DNA of 64,000 nt from Malassezia furfur. Lineage: Eukaryota. Under the pieces are notes generated by a model. The model was not told where the DNA came from, searched no databases, and saw only the letters and a program-made list of their open reading frames with translations. Every line of letters begins with the position of its first letter. The stretch's first letter is position 1. The position numbers and the translations under genes were made by a program. Below, piece by piece: positions 40,615 through 55,834 of this stretch. Where the stretch lies: the NCBI GenBank assembly GCA_052055015.1, contig JBQJIT010000016.1; one strand, written 5' to 3'.

Positions 40615-40857
40615 CGAATATGCGCATTGAGCAGACACATCACAAACGCCATTGGCTCTTTGTAGCCGAGTGCGATCGGAAATGTGTCAGCATAGGTATT
40701 ATCTCCGTCAAGGCGGTACAAAGTATTGAATTTTTGCCCTGAACTGACGCGAGTCTGACAAATATCGCACGTGGGCGTCATCATCGGGCCTCGATTAAGA
40801 ATTTTGGTCAGCATAAAACACCTGGGCGTAACATCGTTTTCTTGGCCCCCCACCAAG

Positions 40858-42270
40858 ATGTCAGCCGTTGCCGACATGCACTATACCGAGGCGCGGAAGC
40901 GCGTGGTTGAGCCCGAGTCGGACCCGAAGGTCGAGGTCGATAAGGAGGTTCCTCGCTACGCGTCGCGCCAGGAACAAGTGGCGGACCCGAACGAACTCTT
41001 TCAGTACAAGGTGCCAGAATTGACGGTGCGCGACCTGCTCTCGGCGATCCCTAAGCATTGCTTTGAGCGCTCGACGTTCCGCTCGAGCCTTTACCTGCTT
41101 GGCGATCTGATTCAAATTGCGGTGCTTGCGTATGCCGCCTCTTGGATCGACACACTCTCTGGCTACGTGCACGTCTCGACGTCGTTTGCATCGGAGGAGA
41201 CGATCCAGCGCTCCCTTCGTTGGATCCTGTGGGGTATTTACAGTTTCTACCAGGGGCTCGTTTTTACCGGCATCTGGGTCATTGCCCACGAATGTGGCCA
41301 CCAAGCGTACAGCCCTAGCAAGACGGTTAACAACGCCGTTGGCTGGGTGCTGCACTCGGCCCTCTTGGTCCCGTACCACTCGTGGCGGATTTCGCACGCC
41401 CGTCACCACGCGGGTACCGGGCACATGACGCGCGATGAGGTCTTTGTTCCTCGCACCCGCGAAGACCGTGGCATGCTTCCGCTGCGTCCTGCCGGCAGCG
41501 ATGTGGCCCCGCAAGAGACGTTTAGTGAGTGGCTCAGCGAGACGCTCGAGGACGTTCCCCTGTACAACTTCATTGAGTTGGTCGTTCAACAGCTCATTGG
41601 GTGGCCGCTCTACCTCCTCTTCGATGTGTCTAGCCAGATGCACCACCCCAAGGGGACCAACCGTACGTAACTACGACTGACCTCAGACTTCTCTCCCAAT
41701 TCGGTGATCTTTGAGAAGCGCCACCGCAACCAAATCATCATGTCGGACGTTGGCATCGCTCTTATGCTGGGCGCTCTCGTTGCCTGGGGTCAATTCTCGT
41801 CCGGTGGCTGGAAAGAGGTGGCTCAGTACTACCTCGTTCCTTATCTTTGGACGAACAACTGGCTGGTGATGATCACCTACCTGCAGCACACGGACCCCTT
41901 GCTTCCTCATTACGATGCCTCTACGTGGAACTTTGCCCGTGGTGCTCTTTGCACCATGGACCGCAACTGGCTGGGTCCGGTCGGTCCTTACCTGTTGCAT
42001 GGCATCAGCGAGACGCACGTTCTGCACCACGTGTGCAGCAAGATCCCTCATTATCATGCGTGGGAGGCCTCCGAGGCGCTCCAAAAGCGCATTGGTGTAC
42101 ACTACATGAAGTCGGACGAAAATGTCCTTGTTTCTCTTTGGAAGTCGATTCGGAGCTGCCGTTTTGTGAAGAACGAACCTGTGGCTTTCTATCACAATGC
42201 CAACGGCGTTCCAAAGAGCGTTGCTGTTATGCCCCAGAACGAAGACTCTGGGGTGGCATTTTCGAGCTAG
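40858..42270 (+). CDS. Delta-12 (omega-6)-type membrane fatty acid desaturase, 2 exons
   Basis: AIPKHCFERS, His boxes HECGH, HARHH, HVLHH, ITYLQHTDP. Intron 41663-41686 (24 nt). Confidence 0.92.
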
Positions 42271-42454
42271 GAAAGAACGACAGCGTGTTTGTTTGAAATC
42301 TCATTCTCGTTTAGCTGCTGCTGTTTCTCTTTGTACATAGCACGAAAATGATACCTAGATGACTGCCCACTCGTTCGTCGTTCCTCAATATTGGAGAATA
42401 GAACTGCTTAGTAAGCAAAACTTGGTAACCAACACCCCACTTGCTTTCTACAAA

Positions 42455-42936
42455 ATGGGTTTGGAGCCGAGCACAAAGCCGACTGAGTAAGTGAACGCTG
42501 CTCACGCGCAGGCCTCCCAAGGAAGATCCGATCACTGCGGCAGAGCTTGCGAAATACGATGGTTCGGATTCATCAAAGCCTGTTTACGTTGCTGTAAAAG
42601 GTGGGTCGGGCTTGCTGCAGACTAACCCCAGGTATCGTCTTCGATGTCTCGCCCCGGCGTGAGATGTATGGTAGGTGAAACAACCAGAGGTTTTGACCTT
42701 GCAGCTCCGGGAAATGGGTATCACGTTTTTGCCGGAAAGGATGCTTCTCGTGGCTTGGGCATGTCCAGTTTGAAACCTGAAGACGCCGTGTCGGACTACT
42801 CCACCCTTACTGAAGCACAGATGAAGGTGCTCAATGACTGGGTATGTCAAACTGTCGCGTGTGCAGATGCTAACAAACACTACAGTTTGAATATTATAAG
42901 AAGCGATACAACATCGTTGGCAAACTTGTTTCGTAG
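42455..42936 (+). CDS. Cytochrome b5-like heme/steroid-binding protein (MAPR/Dap1-like), 5 exons
   Basis: Spliced ELAKYDGSDSSKPVYVAVKGIVFDVS...YHVFAGKDASRGLG...LNDWFEYYKKRYNIVG. Four short GT-AG introns. Confidence 0.87.
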
Positions 42937-42937
42937 A

Positions 42938-43476
42938 TCAACTAGTAGTTGCAATGTCTTGCAATGCGTCCTGTGGGATTTGTCCTTGTTTCCGCCTAGG
43001 TTAGCATCTAGTCGCGTACGTTAGAGCTCCTTTAAAGATAAAAGTATACTTTCCACCACTTTTGATCGGTGGTGGCGTGTGCTCATAGCCAATAGGTAGA
43101 CCACATCTCATACAAAGGAAGTCGTACTGTTGCTCCAGTCTCCCGTCATCGCTAGTGGGTAAGCCAGAAGTAACATACCGTCTGACCATCTGGCCCTCTC
43201 CTTGCGATGCGCTGATTTTGTATACATGAGCAGGGAGTATTTTCCCATCAGGCTGCTCCGCATCCATGCATCGCAATATCCGCGACTTGTCAAAGGGGCG
43301 TTCTGCGAGAAGCTCTAGTGCCTTGTTGCAAACCAAGACGAATTCGCCACATAAACAGTAGTACACAAGCAAATCATTTTGTGCTCGTTCATCCACGGTC
43401 TGGCCCTTATGCGCCCTAATAAGTGTCAGTATACAAAGAACGTGCAGTCCACCTACATGGGAGTATGTCGTGACAT
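42938..43476 (-). CDS. STEEP1/CXorf56-family protein, 4 exons
   Basis: LLVYYCLCGEFVLV, LEQQYDFLCMRCGLPIGY, YTFIFKGAL. Introns include 43152-43178 (27) and 42996-43019 (24). Confidence 0.8.
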
Positions 43477-43570
43477 GATCGTCCCAGTCCGGGGAAATTG
43501 CGACACGACAGTAAGACTTGCGTTACTAATTACATAAATTTCTCACCATCCCCACGGCGGTCTACACGTC

Positions 43571-45073
43571 ATGGGCGCAGAACTCTCAAAACTACGCAGC
43601 CAGAGTAAGGACCAGTTTCAAAAGCAAACATCAGTCGAAGCAGCAGCAGCAGAAGAAAAGGCTCCTGTGTCTGACAACTCGCGTGAATCAGCTGGACCTG
43701 CACCGGCAGAGGAGCAAGCCGTTTTGCAGACCGAAGGAAAGCCTACTAATGACCAAGTTGCTTTTACCGAGGAGTCTACATCATCTCGTTCAGAAAATAC
43801 CAAGTCGGATGGCACACTAGAAGAACAAGAATCCCTCGTCCATGATGTCTCGCTGTCTAGCTTCCGTGAGCGAGTACAGCGTCTACGTGCAGAAGGTCCA
43901 CAATCTGAGCTGGATGGCGATATTCGCGCTGAACTCCAGGCTTCAGGACTCCTTGATCCTGTCGAAGAAGTTGCAGAGGAGCTTGGCGGTATGGACTCGT
44001 CGAGTGAATCAGAAAGCGAATCTTCGAGCGATGAGTCTGATGACGAATCTGAAGACGAGCCTGTCAACGAACCCGATGCTGTGGATGACCAGAAGGGAAG
44101 CGATATACCCCCCAAGACGAAACATGAAATCTTGGATGAGGAGATTCCCATGCCTCCGATTTCTCAGCTTGAACCTGCAGACTTGCCACTGCTTCATCAC
44201 ATCGGCAAAATCCATTCCATCGTGGACAACGTCGTTTTGGTTGCACAAACAGAGGAGCCTACCGAGGATCAGTCGCAGCGAGCTTTTGATGTTCTCGACT
44301 CTGGCAGTTTGCTTTCGTTGGAAGACGGGCGCGTCCTTGGCTTGGTCTATGAAACGTTCGGATCCGTCAAGGCACCCTTTTATTCTGTGCGATTCCCTTC
44401 AGAAGATTCCATCGATAGGGACACCATTAATCCCGGTGTTCCTGTATACTACCTTCCTACAAGCAGTACGTATGTTCTTGCTCGCGCAATTCGAACCAAA
44501 GGAAGTGATGCAAGCAATATTTGGGATGAAGAGGTCGGAGAAGACGAAGCAGAATACAGTGACGATGAAGAGGAAGCAGCCGCAAAGCGTCGGGCAAAGC
44601 AGGAGCGAAAGATGAAAGGTGAAGATGCAACTCCGTTCTCCCCTCCATCGGAAATCGATCCGATGGAGGCATCACTTGGTCCACTTGGAGGTTACCCGGC
44701 GGGCGGGCCATCCAATCCTCGTGGGCGGAAGCGGAAGGACCGGAGTCGTCGGGGGCGTGGGGGCTCGCAAGAAGGAAAGCGCGGTCGACCCCATTTCTAC
44801 GGAAATTATCCTTCCGCTCCTCATATCAACCCGCGCTTTGCTGGGCAATGGATTCAAGGTGCTCCCTACGGCATGCCTCCAGTAATGCCCCCTTTCCCAC
44901 CCGGGTTCGCTATGCCAAACATGGACTCCTTCCGTTCGGAAGGCTATGGTGCATACTCTCCCCACCATGCGCACATTGATACGTCTCAGCCGACCACCTA
45001 CGACCCACACGCACCAAGTCTCTCGCCTCGGGTGGAAAACAACACCCCGGACCGCTATACCCCCTCGTCGTAG
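43571..45073 (+). CDS. NAF1: H/ACA snoRNP assembly factor Naf1
   Basis: PKTKHE, GLVYETFGSVKAPFYSVRF, KGSDASNIWDEEV...YSDDEEE, Pro-rich tail. Confidence 0.9.
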   Translation: MGAELSKLRSQSKDQFQKQTSVEAAAAEEKAPVSDNSRESAGPAPAEEQAVLQTEGKPTNDQVAFTEESTSSRSENTKSDGTLEEQESLVHDVSLSSFRERVQRLRAEGPQSELDGDIRAELQASGLLDPVEEVAEELGGMDSSSESESESSSDESDDESEDEPVNEPDAVDDQKGSDIPPKTKHEILDEEIPMPPISQLEPADLPLLHHIGKIHSIVDNVVLVAQTEEPTEDQSQRAFDVLDSGSLLSLEDGRVLGLVYETFGSVKAPFYSVRFPSEDSIDRDTINPGVPVYYLPTSSTYVLARAIRTKGSDASNIWDEEVGEDEAEYSDDEEEAAAKRRAKQERKMKGEDATPFSPPSEIDPMEASLGPLGGYPAGGPSNPRGRKRKDRSRRGRGGSQEGKRGRPHFYGNYPSAPHINPRFAGQWIQGAPYGMPPVMPPFPPGFAMPNMDSFRSEGYGAYSPHHAHIDTSQPTTYDPHAPSLSPRVENNTPDRYTPSS

Positions 45074-45130
45074 GTTTCCCATAATTTACTGGGTATCATG
45101 TGGTAATATACATCCATCTACACGAGTTGT

Positions 45131-46732
45131 TTACATTTTTGAGAAGGATGCACTGTTGTCCAAGTACGGATACAGATCCGTCGTCAGATTTTCACTGGGC
45201 TTATTTGCGCGAATTTGTTGCATAAGGTAGCGGCAGCACAAGTCCAAAGCTTTGGGATCAAGCCCACGCAACTTCTTGGCTTCGTCAACAATGAGTTCGT
45301 CAATGTATTGCGGTGTAACCTTTTTGCCGTCATCGGTGCTCACGCCATGAAACACCCATTGCCAAAGTGAGACACGGGAAATTTCCGCGGTCGCTGCCTC
45401 GGCGACCGTATAGTTGATAGGAAGACAGGCTTTCCCACGTAACCAGTTGGCACAGTACACGAGCACAGTTTCGATGTTAATTCGTGCACCTTTTTCAGTA
45501 ATCTTTCCAGAAAAATTGGTGTTGAGCAGGTCTTGGGCAGTCACATGCACGTCTTCACGGCGTACGTAGTACTGGTTTGGACCAGGCATTTGCTTGTTGA
45601 AGATTTCAATCGCCATGGGAACAAACGCTGGATCAGACACACAACCACCGTCGTGCCCAGCTTGGGCCTCTCGAAGTTTATCAGCAGCGACTTTCTTCCG
45701 GGCGGCTTCATTCGCAGCTTTGTCATGCTCAATGGGGATCTGTGCGGCCATACCGCCAACTGCAGCAACCCCGCGCTTATGACAGACCTGAATGAGGAGC
45801 TCCACATAAGCCTTCATAAATGGCACGGTCATGGTGACATCGTCACGATCAGGTAGCACAGCACCTTGGTTATAACGCTGACGCTTAATGAACGAGAAGA
45901 TATAGTCCCAGCGACCACAGTTGAGACCGGCCGAATGTTCGCGAAGCTCATAAATGATTTCTTCCATTTCAAACGTGGCAGTAATGGTCTCAATTAGCAC
46001 GGTGCCACGAATTGTGCCGCGTGGCATAGCAGTGTAATCCTCGGCGAAGTTGAAGATATCGTTCCATAGGCGTGCCTCGAATTGTGACTCGAGTTTGGGG
46101 AGGTAGAAATAAGGACCGACGCCATTCTTAAGGAGCTGCTTGGCATTGTGGAAGAAATAAAGGCCAAAGTCAAAGAGGCCACCAGCAATTGGCTTTCCAT
46201 CCACGAGAAAAAATCCTTCGTTCAAATGCCAGCTGCGTGGTCGAATAATTAGCGTTGCGAGTTCTTGGTTCGGCCTGAGTTTCCATTCCGTCCCGTTTTC
46301 GTCCTTGTAGTCAAATGTACGATGAATTGCTGCCTTCAGGTTTACATGCCCGTCCAGAATGTTTGCCCAAGTAGGCGTGGTCTGATCTTCGAAATCGGCC
46401 ATGTAAGCGTACGCTCCAGAGTTCAACAGTTTCATGACAGTTTCTCGGTCCACAGGGCCGGACGTTTCAACACGTCGGTCGCAGAGTCCCGGCGGAGGAG
46501 GCGCGCCCATCCATGTCGGATCCTCGCGAATGTGAGCGGTCTGAGGTAGAAAGTCCAGCGGACGACCAGCATCCAACTCAATCTGACGCGCTGCACGGGC
46601 CTGGAGGCGCTCCTGGCGCCTGTCTTCAAAGATACGGTGCAATGCCGTTAAAAATGTGACAGCTTCAGGAGTCAAGATGTTGGCATGTTCACCATGAACA
46701 GGGGCAAGAATACGGACCCCCTCGACAGACAT
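45131..46732 (-). CDS. Malate synthase A paralog with altered active-site motifs (copy B)
   Basis: 533 aa, collinear with the adjacent copy. Keeps [10 protein letters not shown] and LIET but has TVAEAATAE and GHDGGCVSDP. Ends in SKM. Confidence 0.9.
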   Translation of the reverse strand: MSVEGVRILAPVHGEHANILTPEAVTFLTALHRIFEDRRQERLQARAARQIELDAGRPLDFLPQTAHIREDPTWMGAPPPPGLCDRRVETSGPVDRETVMKLLNSGAYAYMADFEDQTTPTWANILDGHVNLKAAIHRTFDYKDENGTEWKLRPNQELATLIIRPRSWHLNEGFFLVDGKPIAGGLFDFGLYFFHNAKQLLKNGVGPYFYLPKLESQFEARLWNDIFNFAEDYTAMPRGTIRGTVLIETITATFEMEEIIYELREHSAGLNCGRWDYIFSFIKRQRYNQGAVLPDRDDVTMTVPFMKAYVELLIQVCHKRGVAAVGGMAAQIPIEHDKAANEAARKKVAADKLREAQAGHDGGCVSDPAFVPMAIEIFNKQMPGPNQYYVRREDVHVTAQDLLNTNFSGKITEKGARINIETVLVYCANWLRGKACLPINYTVAEAATAEISRVSLWQWVFHGVSTDDGKKVTPQYIDELIVDEAKKLRGLDPKALDLCCRYLMQQIRANKPSENLTTDLYPYLDNSASFSKM

Positions 46733-46989
46733 CCTACCGAATTTCGTACACGAAAGTGACTAGGATGAAAGGCTACCCTATTTCCAGATAAGATTCGCCA
46801 GGGTCTGATAACCTCCACAGGTGTGACACCGTCTATGAGAAGATTAAACGCGGACAGCACCTGGACGCTGGTTAATGCCCGGGCGCAAAGTCTGGCGCCT
46901 ACTGCGCCGGCAATAGATGGTGTTGAGTCCACACAAAGAGCGGGTGACGCCGTTCGCTTTCGCTACGCATATCTACCAAGTATATTTTA

Positions 46990-48591
46990 TTAGATCTTCG
47001 AAAGGCTGGCGCTGTTGTCGAGGTGCGCCGTGAGATCCGTGGTCAAGAACTCACTCGGCTTCTTCGCGCGCACCTGCTGCGAGAGGTAGCGGCGCGAAAG
47101 GTCGACCGCCTTGGGGTCGAGCTTGGTGAGCTTCTTGGCCTCGTCGGCCAGGAGCTCATCAATGTACTGCGGCGTAATCTTCTTGCCGTCGACGGTGCTC
47201 GCACCGTGGAAGACCCACTGCCAGAGCGAGATACGCGAGATCTCGGCGGTCGCAGCATCCTCCATGAGGAAGTTGATCGGAACACAGCCGAGACCGTGCA
47301 CCCAGTTGGCGCAGTAGGCAAGCAGCGCCGAGACGTTCGCACGCGCGCCCTTCTCGGTGATCTTGCCCGTAACGTTGGGGTTGAGCAGGTCGAGCGCAGT
47401 GACGTTGACCTCCTCGCGGCGCACGTAGTACCGGTTGGGGCCAATCATATACTTGTCAAAGATCTCGAGGGCGATCTTGACCAGCGCGGGGTGCGCCACC
47501 CAGGTGCCGTCGTGGCCGGCCTTGACCTCGCGGAGCTTGTCAGCGCGCACCTTCTCCATGGCGGCGTCGTTGGCCTTGGGGTCGTCCTTGATCGGGATCT
47601 GCGCAGCCATACCACCGATCGCTGCCACACCACGCTTGTGGCAGGTCTGGATCAGCAGGTTCACGTAGGCCTGCATGAAGGGCGCCGTCATGGTGACGTC
47701 ACCACGGTCGGGCAGCACGGCGCTCTGGTTGTAGCGCTGGCGCTTGATGAACGAGAAGATGTAGTCCCAGCGACCGCAGTTGAGACCGGACGAGTGCTCG
47801 CGCAGCTCGTAAATGATCTCCTCCATCTCAAAGGCAGCCGTGATGGTCTCAATCAGCACGGTACCACGGATCGTGCCGCGGGGCATGCCAATGTAGTCCT
47901 GCGAGAAGTTGAACACGTCGTTCCACAGACGCGCCTCGAGGTGCGACTCCATCTTGGGGAGGTAGAAGTAGGGGCCGAAGCCGTTCTTGACGAGCTGCTC
48001 GGCGTTGTGGAAGAAGTACAGACCGAAGTCGAACAGACCACCCGAGATGGGCTTGCCGTCCACGAGGAAGAACTCCTCGTTGAGGTGCCAGCCACGGGGG
48101 CGCACAATCAGAGTGGCAAGCTGGTCAGCCGGCTTCAGCTTGTATTCCTTGCCGTTCGACTGCTTAAAGTCGACGCGGCGGTTGATGGCAGCGTTCAGGT
48201 TGACCTGGCCGTCGAGGTTGTTCGCCCAGGTGGGCGAGTTCGAGTCCTCGAAGTCGGCCATGTACGTGTAGGCGCCGGAGTTGAGCGCGTTGATCACCAT
48301 CTTGCGGTCGACCGGACCAGTGATCTCGACGCGGCGGTCACGCAGACCCGGCGCAGGCTTGGCACCCATCCAGGTGGGGTCCTCACGGATGTGGGCCGTC
48401 TGCGGCAGGAAGTCGAGCTGCTTGCCAGCGTCCAGCTCAACCTGGCGCGCCTCACGGGCACGCAGGCGCTCCTGGCGCGTGCTCTCGAAGACACGGTGCA
48501 GGGTCGCCACGAACTTGATCGCCTCGGGCGTGAGGATCTTGGCGTGCTCGCCGAGCACAGGGGCAAGAATACGAACACCTTCAACCGACAT
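46990..48591 (-). CDS. MLS1: Malate synthase (glyoxylate cycle), canonical copy A
   Basis: [47 protein letters not shown]. 533 aa from ATG 48591, ends in SKI. Confidence 0.97.
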
Positions 48592-49221
48592 GATGTGTAG
48601 AAAGATAGACGTTCCACCACTCACTCCGTTCCATTTCCTTATATTGCCCCGGGCGTTCTGAACCTCACCCCGGCTCGGCGAGCCCCGCGCACCCCGCAGT
48701 CTGTGCGCCTCTTACCTAGAGGTTCTCTCGGGTGTTTGCACCAATCACAGCGGAGGCACGTTGCAGATGTCCGGTTAGTTCCTCGCCAAGGCTGTGCCGG
48801 ACTCCCGGTTATGTCATGCTGAGCAAACGCTCTCGGCTCGTTATTCAGACCTAGGTAATCTGCGATAGTTGCGCACGTTGCGCAGTCGGCGCCCCCGACT
48901 GCAGGACCAGGGGCTTATCTGCAGCTCAGGTATCACGAGAGCAGGCACGTGTTTTTGCGCAGACGCGTCAGCGCGGCCAAGCCAGGCTGTGATTGTAGGG
49001 AAATCGCGTGCAGTATGCAGCTTCTAATTTCGAACGAGGCGTCCGCCGTTATCACGATCTTATAGTCTTATTGGGATACGCGCGGCGCGATTAATTAGGT
49101 GTGCAATCTAGCAGGGGGTAGGTGGCCTGTTTCAGTGCTTCCAGGGGGAGACCGCGTGTCGCTTACGTCCTTGCACTCGTTGCACTCGCGCGCTCGTACC
49201 TCAGGTACTGAGTACGCAGCG

Positions 49222-54396: not shown

Positions 54397-54649
54397 TACA
54401 CGTCCCCCGCAGGCGAAACGACGTAACGCCGACCCACTTCCCTCCACCTGCCGCGATGCGCACGCGCACGACGGGCGATGCAATCCGCACGTATGCAGCG
54501 AATGACCGTCCGTACCCCACTCGGCCGAGACGGAGATTACCGGGCGGGAGGTGAGATCGGACTGCTTCAGCGCGCAGTTAGTTACCCCGCAGAGCGGTTC
54601 GGTAACTGTGTACAAGAATTACCGGGGTTTCTTAGTTTCCTGCATCATC

Positions 54650-55834
54650 ATGACGAACGCATTCATTGTTGGCTCGAAGCGCACGGCATTTGGCTCTTTC
54701 GGTGGCAAGCTGAGCCAGATCAACGCTGCTCAGCTTGGTGGCCACGCCGCCAAGGCTGCGCTGGCTCAAGCTAAGGCTGATACCCCCATCTCGTCGACCG
54801 TCTTCGGTGTGGTGACCCAGTCGGACTCTACGACGCCCTACCTCTCCCGCCACGTCGGCCACCACGCCGGCCTGCCCATCACGGTGCCGGCCCTCACGAT
54901 CAACCGTCTGTGTGGCAGTGGGTTCCAGGCGGCGATCAACGCCTTCCAGGAGATCAAGAGTGGCGACTCCGAGGTGGTGCTCACCGGTGGCACGGAGAAC
55001 ATGAGCATGTCGCCCTACACGCTCCACGGTGTTCGCTTTGGTAACACGCGCTATGGCGTCGACCTCAAGCTGGCGGACAGCCTCGCGAGCTCCCTGGTCG
55101 ACCAGGTGCCCGTTCCTACCCCTATGGGTGTCACTGCTGAGAACCTCGCCGTGAAGTACGGCATCACGCGCGAGCAGTGCGACCAGTTCGCGCTCCAGTC
55201 GCAGCAGCGCTGGGCCGAGGCGAACAAGAACGGTGCCTTCAAGGACGAGATCGAGCCTATCGAAGTCAAGGTGAAGAAGGCCACTGAGACCTTCGAGGTG
55301 GACGAGCACCCGCGCGCGAACGCTTCGCTGGAGTCGCTTGCGAAGCTGCCCCCGGTGTTCAAGAAGGACGGTGTCGTGACCGCCGGTAACGCGTCGGGTA
55401 TCTCGGACGGTGCCGCGGCCAACGTGATTGCCAGCGAGGATGCGCTCACGAAGTACGGCCTCAAGCCCCTTGCGCGTATCGTTAGCTACGGTGTGACGGG
55501 CTGCGAGCCGTCGCTCATGGGCATTGGTCCCGTCGAGGCCTCGCGTGTGGCTCTCAAGCGCGCGGGTCTGACCATTGCTGATATGGACCTGATCGAGGTG
55601 AACGAGGCCTTTGCTGCCCAGTTCCTCGCGGTCCAGAAGGAGCTCGAGCTGCCTAACGACAAGACGAACATCAACGGTGGCGCTATCGCGCTCGGTCACC
55701 CGCTTGGCGCCAGCGGTGCCCGCATCATGGCGAACCTGACCTACAGCCTGCACCGCCTCGACAAGAAGTACGCTCTTGGCGCGGCCTGCATTGGTGGTGG
55801 CCAGGGTATCGCGGTTGTCCTTGAACGTGTTTAA
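54650..55834 (+). CDS. 3-ketoacyl-CoA thiolase (ACAA2-like)
   Basis: NRLCGSG, NEAFAAQ, GHPLGASG, CIGGGQG. Confidence 0.93.
   Translation: MTNAFIVGSKRTAFGSFGGKLSQINAAQLGGHAAKAALAQAKADTPISSTVFGVVTQSDSTTPYLSRHVGHHAGLPITVPALTINRLCGSGFQAAINAFQEIKSGDSEVVLTGGTENMSMSPYTLHGVRFGNTRYGVDLKLADSLASSLVDQVPVPTPMGVTAENLAVKYGITREQCDQFALQSQQRWAEANKNGAFKDEIEPIEVKVKKATETFEVDEHPRANASLESLAKLPPVFKKDGVVTAGNASGISDGAAANVIASEDALTKYGLKPLARIVSYGVTGCEPSLMGIGPVEASRVALKRAGLTIADMDLIEVNEAFAAQFLAVQKELELPNDKTNINGGAIALGHPLGASGARIMANLTYSLHRLDKKYALGAACIGGGQGIAVVLERV

What the first reader, a model, noticed from the sequence alone, without database searches (positions are those of the whole stretch)
45131..46732. Intact malate synthase duplicate with a rewired active site: candidate new enzyme or pseudoenzyme
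Seen: the tandem copy B has the same length as copy A (533 aa) with no frameshift or stop. Its changes hit near-invariant motifs: LMEDAAT to [17 protein letters not shown] to [18 protein letters not shown] to [24 protein letters not shown] to VETSGPVDRETVMKLL, RPRGW to RPRSW. It keeps the catalytic Arg and both Mg2+ ligands (LIET Glu, GRWD Asp). Known: the Asp of MEDAAT is the catalytic base for acetyl-CoA enolisation. Inference: retained oxo-acid/Mg binding with Asp to Glu and loss of a conserved Trp suggests altered chemistry (another acyl-CoA or 2-oxo acid, or lyase-type activity) or a regulatory role, rather than simple decay.
Basis: partly seen in the sequence, partly recalled or inferred. 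Interest (0 to 1): 0.8.

Follow-up and report, generated by a model that had tools for sequence, protein, structure and literature searches.

The report
Rewired malate synthase paralogue in Malassezia
A skin yeast of the Malassezia furfur group carries, next to its normal malate synthase gene, an old and still intact second copy whose catalytic pocket has been rebuilt, so it probably does a different, still unknown job.

Summary
Copy B (45131-46732, minus strand, 533 aa) lies 257 bp downstream of canonical copy A (46990-48591).

The window is Malassezia furfur. The duplication is old: third codon positions are 42% identical. B forms one clade with a similar paralogue in M. yamatoensis and M. 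psittaci.

All five B/C sequences share Asp->Glu at the catalytic base, Trp->Cys and Thr->Gly beside the glyoxylate aldehyde carbon, and Thr->Ser and Met->Thr in the CoA pocket. They keep both Arg, both Mg ligands and the acyl-side Trp.

B changes about 16 times faster than A, but its changes avoid conserved columns, the frame is open in all five sequences, and the model folds confidently as malate synthase A.

Two published structural points guide the mechanism. This Trp blocks pyruvate. The only other Asp->Glu clade in the superfamily is the hydrolysis-only malyl-CoA thioesterase.

My best reading is a diverged, still catalytic enzyme acting on a substituted malyl-CoA-type thioester or a larger 2-oxo acid. 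Expression and activity are untested.

The parts
45131..46732 (-). Copy B: diverged malate-synthase-family paralogue, 533 aa plus stop. GC3 is 0.53. It ends in SKM, a PTS1-like tripeptide.
46990..48591 (-). Copy A: canonical peroxisomal-type malate synthase, 533 aa. GC3 is 0.865 and it ends in SKI. It differs by 1 aa from M. furfur CBS14141 malate synthase (P0137).
46733..46989 (-). 257-bp spacer between the stop of A and the start of B. It must hold the 3' end of A and any promoter of B. This role is inferred, not shown.
   Evidence: sequence read; no Rfam match in 42-50 kb
45398..45406 (-). Codons Val443-Ala444-Glu445, replacing Met-Glu-Asp. Glu445 stands at the catalytic-base position (E. 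coli MSA Asp447).
45629..45646 (-). Codons Gly363-Cys364-Val-Ser-Asp367-Pro368, replacing Thr-Trp-Val-Ala-His-Pro. Cys364 replaces the Trp next to the glyoxylate aldehyde carbon (E. coli MSA Trp365). Pro368 is the adenine-capping Pro369.
46439..46465 (-). Codons Thr90-Ser91-...-Thr98, replacing Ile94, Thr95 and Met102 of E. coli MSA. These are the CoA adenine and pantothenate pocket.
46232..46243 (-). Codons Arg164-Pro-Arg166-Ser167. Both Arg are kept, and the following Gly is replaced by Ser.
45905..45991 (-). Retained Mg ligands Glu248 (45989-45991) and Asp276 (45905-45907), and retained acyl-side gate Trp275 (45908-45910, E. coli MSA Trp277).

Best explanation
**What it is.** Copy B is a functional but diverged member of the malate synthase A fold. 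It arose by tandem duplication of the peroxisomal malate synthase gene in an ancestor of the M. furfur / M. yamatoensis / M. psittaci group.

**Shown**
- It is intact and predicted to fold like malate synthase A.
- It keeps the Mg/2-oxo-acid carboxylate site (Glu248, Asp276, DFED), both Arg of RPR, the acyl-side Trp275 and most of the CoA site.
- A set of active-site replacements was fixed before the furfur and yamatoensis lineages split and has been kept since: Asp445Glu at the base, Met443Val beside it, Trp364Cys and Thr363Gly next to the electrophile carbon, and Thr91Ser and Met98Thr in the CoA pocket.
- The rest of the protein evolves about 16 times faster than copy A, but under purifying selection.

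**Inferred**
- The lost Trp is the residue that sterically stops pyruvate from completing the reaction in malate synthases.
- The Asp->Glu change is otherwise known only from the malyl-CoA thioesterase clade, which hydrolyses but does not make or break the C-C bond.
- B therefore most likely no longer works as an efficient glyoxylate + acetyl-CoA condensing enzyme.
- I propose that it binds Mg2+ and a CoA thioester and hydrolyses a C2-substituted malyl-CoA-type ester such as citramalyl-CoA. Alternatively it condenses acetyl-CoA with a 2-oxo acid larger than glyoxylate and then hydrolyses the product.
- The SKM ending suggests this happens in the peroxisome.

**Odds.** About 0.55 that B is a selected, catalytically active enzyme with changed specificity or chemistry. 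About 0.25 for the specific thioesterase or alkylmalate-synthase chemistry named here.
For: **Intact and properly folded**
- 533-aa ORF, three Pfam malate synthase domains.
- AlphaFold2 pLDDT 91.9 and pTM 0.91. Foldseek TM 0.95 and rmsd 1.3 A to E. coli MSA 3cv2.

**Old duplication with coding constraint**
- Third-position identity is 42% and pS is 0.77 (saturated), against dN 0.162.
- 0 of 20000 neutral simulations keep the ORF open.

**Single origin with the yamatoensis/psittaci paralogue**
- The B+C clade has 99/98 support and is nested in the furfur-group A clade at 100/98.
- A furfur-only origin is rejected weakly (AU p 0.037).
- The clade persists at SH-aLRT 84 after the six active-site columns are removed.
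- There are 12 identical shared derived residues, 6 of them at or next to named substrate contacts.

**Continued purifying selection**
- B of the window and B of CBS9595 differ at 65 positions. Only 5 fall in the 161 family-invariant columns, against 19.6 expected (p 1e-6).
- C of M. yamatoensis and C of M. psittaci show 1 against 8.2 expected (p 0.004).

**Catalytic scaffold kept**
- R164, R166, E248, W275, D276, M328, P368 and D113-F-E-D116 are kept in all five B/C sequences.

**Residue roles from published structures (passages read)**
- Asp447 of E. coli MSA is the base. Trp534 (MSG) / Trp257 (MSH) lies next to the glyoxylate aldehyde carbon, four residues before the adenine-capping Pro (Pro369 in MSA).
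- Ile94, Thr95, Gly96 and Met102 line the CoA site.
- The methyl group of pyruvate clashes with this Trp (PMC3112382).
- The propionyl gate is Trp277 of MSA, which B keeps. The only Asp->Glu clade in the superfamily is the malyl-CoA thioesterase clade (PMC3832036).
Against: - No paper names these genes.
- B evolves much faster than A. Between the same two lineages there are 65 amino-acid differences in B and 4 in A. Tree branches are 0.29-0.37 against 0-0.04.
- Between the window and CBS14141, B has 14 differences whose spread over conservation classes is not distinguishable from random (p 0.23).
- GC3 of 0.53 suggests low codon adaptation, although the neighbours Naf1 and STEEP1 are equally low.
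- No B-type protein was found for M. obtusa, M. brasiliensis or M. japonica. The gene is therefore dispensable in some relatives, or is unannotated there.
- One frameshifted version (P0156, 3 Logan contigs) exists in the 90% cluster.
- The C type lost the PTS1-like end and 9 residues.
- The thioesterase analogy crosses two distant branches of the superfamily and rests on one residue.
- The grouping of B with C could be inflated by long-branch attraction.
Confidence: 0.5

Rival explanations
1. B is still a malate synthase (EC 2.3.3.9). It would be a second isozyme with altered kinetics, regulation or location, as MLS1 and DAL7 are in baker's yeast (that pair is recalled from memory). Glu would serve as a slightly displaced base.
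For: - Full family architecture and fold.
- Mg ligands, both Arg, the acyl gate Trp275 and Met328 are kept.
- Asp->Glu keeps a carboxylate.
- The PTS1-like SKM end resembles A's SKI.
- M. yamatoensis and M. psittaci databases name their copy 'malate synthase'.
Against: - 140 of 143 close homologue clusters keep both Trp and Asp. Only the B/C type lacks them.
- The Trp contacts the electrophile carbon.
- The one known Asp->Glu clade in the superfamily lacks C-C chemistry.
- Six substrate-contact positions changed together and were then kept. This looks like selection for something new rather than for the old reaction.
Confidence: 0.2
2. B is a redundant copy in slow decay. It has been kept open so far by chance or by weak residual selection and has no distinct function.
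For: - About 16-fold faster protein evolution than A.
- Low GC3.
- No B type detected in M. obtusa, M. brasiliensis or M. japonica.
- A frameshifted variant P0156 and many shorter gene calls in the cluster.
- The 14 window-versus-CBS14141 differences are spread as if at random.
Against: - 0 of 20000 neutral simulations keep the ORF.
- Five independent sequences are all open.
- Changes avoid invariant columns (p 1e-6 and p 0.004).
- The catalytic scaffold is invariant in all five.
- Rough omega is about 0.2. This takes 65 differences as dN of about 0.057 and guesses dS at 0.25-0.35 from the roughly 10% lineage divergence reported in PMC9040865. It is my estimate, not a computation on DNA.
- Most of the short variants look like contig ends or gene-caller start choices. 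One ends in adapter-like residues, which I recognise from memory.
Confidence: 0.15
3. B is a catalytically inert pseudoenzyme that binds ligand, or binds copy A, and has a regulatory or scaffolding role.
For: - The catalytic base and a substrate-contact Trp are replaced while the fold and ligand-binding scaffold are kept.
- Tandem position next to the active paralogue.
Against: - Malate synthases A and G are described as structurally and functionally monomeric (PMC3832036 passage), so there is no known partner interface.
- Mg ligands and both Arg remain invariant despite fast evolution. That is more than binding alone would need.
- A + B exceeds the size limit of complex prediction, so no complex prediction was made.
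Confidence: 0.1

Closest known systems
Malate synthase A (AceB / fungal Mls1 type; PDB 3CUZ, 3CV2, 3CUX)
   Same: - Same three Pfam domains.
- 42-48% identity and TM 0.91-0.95 to the solved structures.
- Same Mg ligands, Arg pair, DFED motif, acyl-side Trp277 and Met330 equivalents.
   Different: - The catalytic base Asp447 is Glu.
- Trp365 and Thr364 next to the glyoxylate are Cys and Gly.
- Met445 and Glu446 are Val and Ala.
- CoA-pocket Ile94, Thr95, Met102 and His368 are Thr, Ser, Thr and Asp.
- Gly169 is Ser.
(3S)-malyl-CoA thioesterase clade of the CitE-like superfamily (Rhodobacter sphaeroides enzyme; Erb et al. 2010, seen only as cited in PMC3832036)
   Same: - A paralogue of a C-C-forming enzyme of the same superfamily that carries Glu instead of the otherwise universal catalytic Asp (PMC3832036 passage).
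- Mg-dependent and acts on CoA thioesters.
   Different: - It belongs to the trimeric CitE-like branch, which lacks the MSA N-terminal domain.
- It is not a phylogenetic relative of B within the family.
Yeast MLS1/DAL7-type duplicated malate synthases (recalled from memory)
   Same: Two malate-synthase genes in one fungal genome.
   Different: Those pairs keep canonical active sites, as far as I recall. All 140 canonical fungal clusters seen here keep Trp and Asp. B does not.
Promiscuous malyl-CoA lyases and haloarchaeal malate synthase (also act on beta-methylmalyl-CoA and citramalyl-CoA)
   Same: Superfamily members whose substrate range is set by single gate residues: Ala183, Leu454 or Trp277 for propionyl-CoA, and Pro plus Trp for pyruvate (PMC3832036 and PMC3112382 passages).
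   Different: They keep both the Asp and the Trp. B opens the pyruvate-side gate, which none of the described enzymes does.

Membership tests
Malate synthase protein family (Pfam MS_N + MS_TIM-barrel + MS_C; MSA fold) | Three-domain architecture above the curated cut-offs | tested here: met
   57.0, 347.8 and 90.7 bits against cut-offs of 23.5, 26.4 and 23.1
Malate synthase protein family (Pfam MS_N + MS_TIM-barrel + MS_C; MSA fold) | Fold superposes on solved MSA structures | tested here: met
   pLDDT 91.9; TM 0.95 and rmsd 1.3 A to 3cv2_B
Malate synthase, EC 2.3.3.9 (function) | Mg2+ ligands Glu250 and Asp278 (E. coli MSA numbering) | tested here: met
   B Glu248 and Asp276. The numbering offset was checked against Trp277, Pro369 and Asp447 as named in PMC3832036 and PMC3112382.
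Malate synthase, EC 2.3.3.9 (function) | Enolate-stabilising Arg (MSG Arg338; the MSA number Arg166 is recalled from memory) | tested here: met
   B Arg164 and Arg166 are both kept
Malate synthase, EC 2.3.3.9 (function) | Catalytic base Asp (MSA Asp447 / MSG Asp631) | tested here: not met
   Glu445 in B and in all five B/C sequences. Asp is present in 140 of 143 close clusters.
Malate synthase, EC 2.3.3.9 (function) | Trp next to the glyoxylate aldehyde carbon (MSA Trp365 / MSG Trp534) | tested here: not met
   Cys364 in all five B/C sequences. The role of the Trp is taken from PMC3112382.
Malate synthase, EC 2.3.3.9 (function) | Acetyl-CoA + glyoxylate -> malate + CoA activity | not testable with these tools
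   needs an enzyme assay
Peroxisomal (PTS1-bearing) fungal malate synthase | C-terminal [SAC][KRH][LMI]-type tripeptide (consensus recalled from memory) | tested here: inconclusive
   B ends in SKM (window, CBS14141) or SKV (CBS9595). A ends in SKI. The C type ends in FSS or FSC. Targeting was not tested.
Malyl-CoA thioesterase clade (CitE-like) | Glu in place of the catalytic Asp | tested here: met
   B Glu445. The clade feature is taken from a PMC3832036 passage.
Malyl-CoA thioesterase clade (CitE-like) | Phylogenetic membership in the CitE-like branch, with no MSA N-terminal domain | tested here: not met
   B has MS_N and nests inside the Malassezia malate synthases. The resemblance is by analogy only.

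The most novel reading that the evidence does not exclude
The B/C paralogues are a new enzyme activity built on the malate synthase A fold. The activity would be either a peroxisomal thioesterase for C2-substituted malyl-CoA-type esters (citramalyl-CoA-like) or a 2-alkylmalate synthase using pyruvate or a larger 2-oxo acid. It would have been created by opening the Trp gate and lengthening the base, in convergence with the bacterial malyl-CoA thioesterase. In a lipid-dependent skin yeast that lives on the glyoxylate cycle, such an enzyme could dispose of CoA esters or oxo acids that would otherwise poison that cycle. That physiological link is speculation.
Probability: 0.25. Interest if true: 0.75.

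Novelty: new variant of a known kind. Interest (0 to 1): 0.55.

Why it matters

Here a natural paralogue has replaced the catalytic base and the residue that enforces glyoxylate specificity, and selection has kept the result in at least three Malassezia species. If it is active, it would show how the malate synthase A fold acquires a new substrate or loses C-C chemistry.

It would also add an uncharacterised reaction to the metabolism of an opportunistic human skin yeast. It would warn against automatic 'malate synthase' annotation, which the M. yamatoensis and M. psittaci copies already carry.

The wider survey hints that this is not isolated. Among 150 family representatives, about a third of those with a residue at the site lack the Trp (47 of 134) and about a quarter lack the Asp (31 of 134). 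None of these is characterised as far as my searches show.

Tried and rejected
- **Whole-genome search.** No genome is held for this window.
- **RNA and DNA read evidence.** Expression and allele-level dN/dS remain open.
- **dN/dS between A and B.** Synonymous sites are saturated (pS 0.77), so only dN 0.162 is usable.
- **Horizontal origin or RIP as the cause of B's low GC3.** Rejected. B nests inside the Malassezia malate synthases, and its neighbours Naf1 and STEEP1 have equally low GC3. The excess of C->T and G->A (196 of 463 differences) fits regional GC decline, and the frame is intact.
Made less likely, because the published propionyl gate Trp277 is retained.
- **Metabolic gene cluster.** The neighbours are Dbr1, a fatty-acid desaturase, STEEP1, Naf1, a SAPS protein and a thiolase. 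There is no evident pathway cluster.
- **More B-type members.** A profile search found only the three known clusters.
- **Origin of non-canonical metagenomic relatives.** Five of the eight looked up are unnamed singletons, one is an unnamed cluster and two are clusters named only 'malate synthase'.
- **Literature.**
  - 'Malassezia' with 'malate synthase': 17 papers, none on this paralogue judging by titles and abstract starts.
  - Accession and locus-tag search: 0 papers.
  - Lohman et al. 2008 and Erb et al. 2010 are not held.
- **Earlier scan notes.** None exist for this genome.
- **A-B complex prediction.** Not attempted. The pair exceeds the 1000-residue limit, and no interface is suggested by the monomeric family.
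Full report
**1. What is in the sequence**

The minus strand holds two tandem 533-codon reading frames. Copy A is at 46990-48591 and copy B at 45131-46732, separated by 257 bp.

They align without gaps at 401/533 identities. Both carry the three Pfam malate synthase domains far above threshold. A direct-repeat scan recovers the 1859-nt register of the duplication.

No RNA family is found in 42-50 kb.

**2. Organism and relatives**

Copy A differs by one residue from the M. furfur CBS14141 malate synthase. Copy B is 97% identical to the adjacent 'hypothetical protein' CBS14141_000599, and 88% identical to CBS9595_002678, which also sits next to that strain's malate synthase.

Among 143 cluster representatives returned by three searches of a 5.8-billion-protein collection, 140 carry Trp and Asp at the two key sites. 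Three carry Cys and Glu: the two M. furfur B clusters and one cluster holding a 524-aa protein of M. yamatoensis and M. psittaci. I call this last protein the C type.

Those two species also have a canonical copy, three accession numbers away on the same contig. No B-type protein was seen for M. obtusa, M. brasiliensis or M. japonica, of which only canonical copies appeared. This does not exclude unannotated or broken copies.

**3. Age and descent**

Nucleotide identity between A and B is 71%. Third codon positions are 42% identical. The proportion of synonymous differences is 0.77 (saturated) and dN is 0.162.

I built a maximum-likelihood tree of 27 sequences that I chose from the hits. It contains the two window proteins, 19 Malassezia proteins and 6 outgroups. 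It places the three B and two C sequences in one clade (99/98), nested inside the clade of canonical copies of M. furfur, M. obtusa, M. brasiliensis, M. yamatoensis and M. psittaci (100/98).

Holding B together with the furfur A copies costs 23 log-likelihood units (AU p 0.037). The group was named after the tree had been seen. With the six active-site columns removed, B and C still group, at SH-aLRT 84.

In 460 columns that are invariant in eight A sequences:
- B and C share 12 identical derived residues.
- 32 further columns changed in both, to different residues.
- 34 columns are fixed changes in B only, and 27 in C only.

Long-branch attraction cannot be excluded, but the shared rare states argue for one origin.

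In the C type, residues of about 205-325 are 100% identical to the canonical copy of the same species, including species-specific states. This indicates gene conversion of the barrel core. The rewired flanks were left untouched.

**4. Selection**

B is not neutral.
- Placing the 463 observed substitutions at random on A left the frame open in 0 of 20000 trials.
- All five B/C sequences are open.
- I defined 161 of 533 columns as invariant (99% or more) in 60 non-redundant canonical sequences.
  - The 65 differences between B of the window and B of CBS9595 hit only 5 of them, against 19.6 expected (chi-square p 1e-6).
  - The 27 differences between the two C sequences hit 1, against 8.2 expected (p 0.004).

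Constraint is nevertheless relaxed.
- The same two M. furfur lineages differ at 4 residues in A.
- Tree branches to B are 0.29 + 0.06-0.08 substitutions per column, against 0-0.04 for A.
- The 14 differences between the window and CBS14141 are too few to distinguish from random (p 0.23).

PMC9040865 (passages read) reports about 10% divergence between the two M. furfur parental lineages. Guessing dS at 0.25-0.35 from this gives an omega of roughly 0.2 for B and 0.01 for A. This is an estimate, not a computation on orthologue DNA, which I could not reach.

B's GC3 of 0.53 contrasts with 0.865 in A. It matches the neighbours Naf1 (0.475) and STEEP1 (0.47) in a 42-47 kb GC trough. It is therefore regional and perhaps expression-related, not a sign of foreign origin.

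**5. Where the changes fall**

Aligning B to the solved E. coli and B. anthracis enzymes gives numbering that I checked against residues named in two structure papers, of which I read passages (PMC3112382; PMC3832036).

| B residue | E. coli MSA equivalent | Published role | State in the C type |
|---|---|---|---|
| Glu445 | Asp447 | catalytic base | Glu |
| Cys364 | Trp365 | next to the glyoxylate aldehyde carbon, four residues before the adenine-capping Pro369; its indole (with MSH Pro231 / MSA Met330) clashes with the methyl of pyruvate | Cys |
| Gly363 | Thr364 | adjacent to that Trp | Gly |
| Ser91 | Thr95 | pantothenate hydrogen bond | Ser |
| Thr98 | Met102 | adenine pocket | Thr |
| Thr90 | Ile94 | adenine pocket | Ile (unchanged) |
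| Asp367 | His368 | precedes the capping Pro | Leu |
| Ser167 | Gly169 | follows the Arg-x-Arg | Asn |

The authors give the clash between this Trp and pyruvate as the reason pyruvate inhibits rather than reacts.

Trp275 is kept. It corresponds to Trp277, which PMC3832036 names as the side chain that keeps propionyl-CoA out of MSA. Met328, both Mg ligands, both Arg and DFED are also kept in all five B/C sequences.

The AlphaFold2 model built with a 44-sequence alignment is confident (pLDDT 91.9). It superposes on 3cv2 at TM 0.95.

**6. Mechanism**

What is shown is an intact, selected scaffold that binds Mg and a CoA ester, with a rebuilt electrophile pocket and a longer base. The rest is inference from two published points.

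First, removing the Trp and the neighbouring Thr opens the side of the pocket that excludes 2-oxo acids carrying a substituent. The acyl side is unchanged.

[quoted passage not shown] That enzyme hydrolyses the thioester without making or breaking the C-C bond.

I therefore propose that B hydrolyses a C2-substituted malyl-CoA-type ester, or condenses acetyl-CoA with a larger 2-oxo acid and then hydrolyses the product. I propose this rather than an efficient malate synthase.

The SKM end suggests a peroxisomal location. The C type, ending in FSS or FSC, would not share it.

**7. Rivals**

- A still-working malate synthase isozyme: 0.2.
- A copy in slow decay: 0.15.
- An inert pseudoenzyme: 0.1.

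All three remain possible, and their tests are given above.

**8. Context in the wider family**

Among 150 representatives of 50%-identity clusters (34-60% identical to B), 134 have a residue at each key site.
- The Trp position holds Trp in 87, Arg in 20, Leu in 6, Cys in 5 and other residues in 16.
- The base position holds Asp in 103, Asn in 10, Glu in 1 (P0297, with the same Ala-Glu pair as B) and other residues in 20.

A few rows are fragments or look frame-shifted, so these counts are approximate.

I looked up eight of them. Five are unnamed singletons, one is an unnamed cluster and two are clusters called 'malate synthase'. B is thus one example of an apparently common and undescribed phenomenon.

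**9. Novelty and verdict**

My searches found no paper on these genes or on a Malassezia malate synthase paralogue, and none on such variants of malate synthase A. Supplementary tables were not searched.

I rate the finding a new variant of a known kind, with interest 0.55. It is a real and evolutionarily coherent active-site rewiring with a testable mechanism. It lacks any expression or activity evidence, and constraint on it is clearly relaxed.

Noticed in passing
proteins P0075 and P0167 (M. yamatoensis, M. psittaci); no window coordinates: In the C-type paralogue, residues of about 205-325 are 100% identical to the canonical malate synthase of the same species, while both flanks are 30-87% identical. 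This looks like gene conversion of the barrel core that spared the rewired motifs. The C type also has a 9-residue deletion and no PTS1-like end.
   Followed up: partly
window 42000-46990: There is a GC trough of 0.45-0.56 in 250-nt windows against 0.60-0.70 in the flanks. GC3 steps from 0.865 (copy A) to 0.53 (copy B), 0.475 (Naf1) and 0.47 (STEEP1) exactly at the A/B boundary. The cause is unknown.
   Followed up: partly
proteins P0171-P0320 (representatives of 50% clusters): Many malate-synthase-A-like proteins in metagenomes lack the canonical Trp365 (47 of 134 with a residue at the site, most often Arg) or Asp447 (31 of 134, most often Asn). P0297 has the same Ala-Glu pair as copy B but keeps the Trp. 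None is named beyond 'malate synthase'.
   Followed up: partly
proteins P0151, P0152, P0156 in the 90% cluster of copy B: Three variants stand out in the cluster. P0156 (401 aa, 3 Logan contigs) shifts frame after ...NEAAR into the frame of the window's ORF 45541-45807. P0151 (459 aa, 25 contigs, one of 1.26 Mb) starts at Met75 although the window's frame is open from Met1. P0152 (530 aa, 15 contigs) has an in-frame 3-residue deletion. It is unresolved whether these are real alleles, assembly errors or gene-caller choices.
   Followed up: no
window 40771-42270 (+): A fatty-acid desaturase is split into two ORFs (40771-41670 and 41704-42270) that match the first and second parts of the Pfam model. 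Most likely this is one gene with a short intron.
   Followed up: no
window 47023-48600 (+): A 525-codon open frame runs antisense to copy A. It is best explained as a by-product of the very high GC3 (0.865) of A, not as a gene.
   Followed up: no
window 54551-55834 (+): A thiolase gene (Thiolase_N + Thiolase_C) lies about 6 kb from the malate synthase pair. Together with the desaturase it gives a loose lipid-metabolism neighbourhood, but there is no evident cluster.
   Followed up: no
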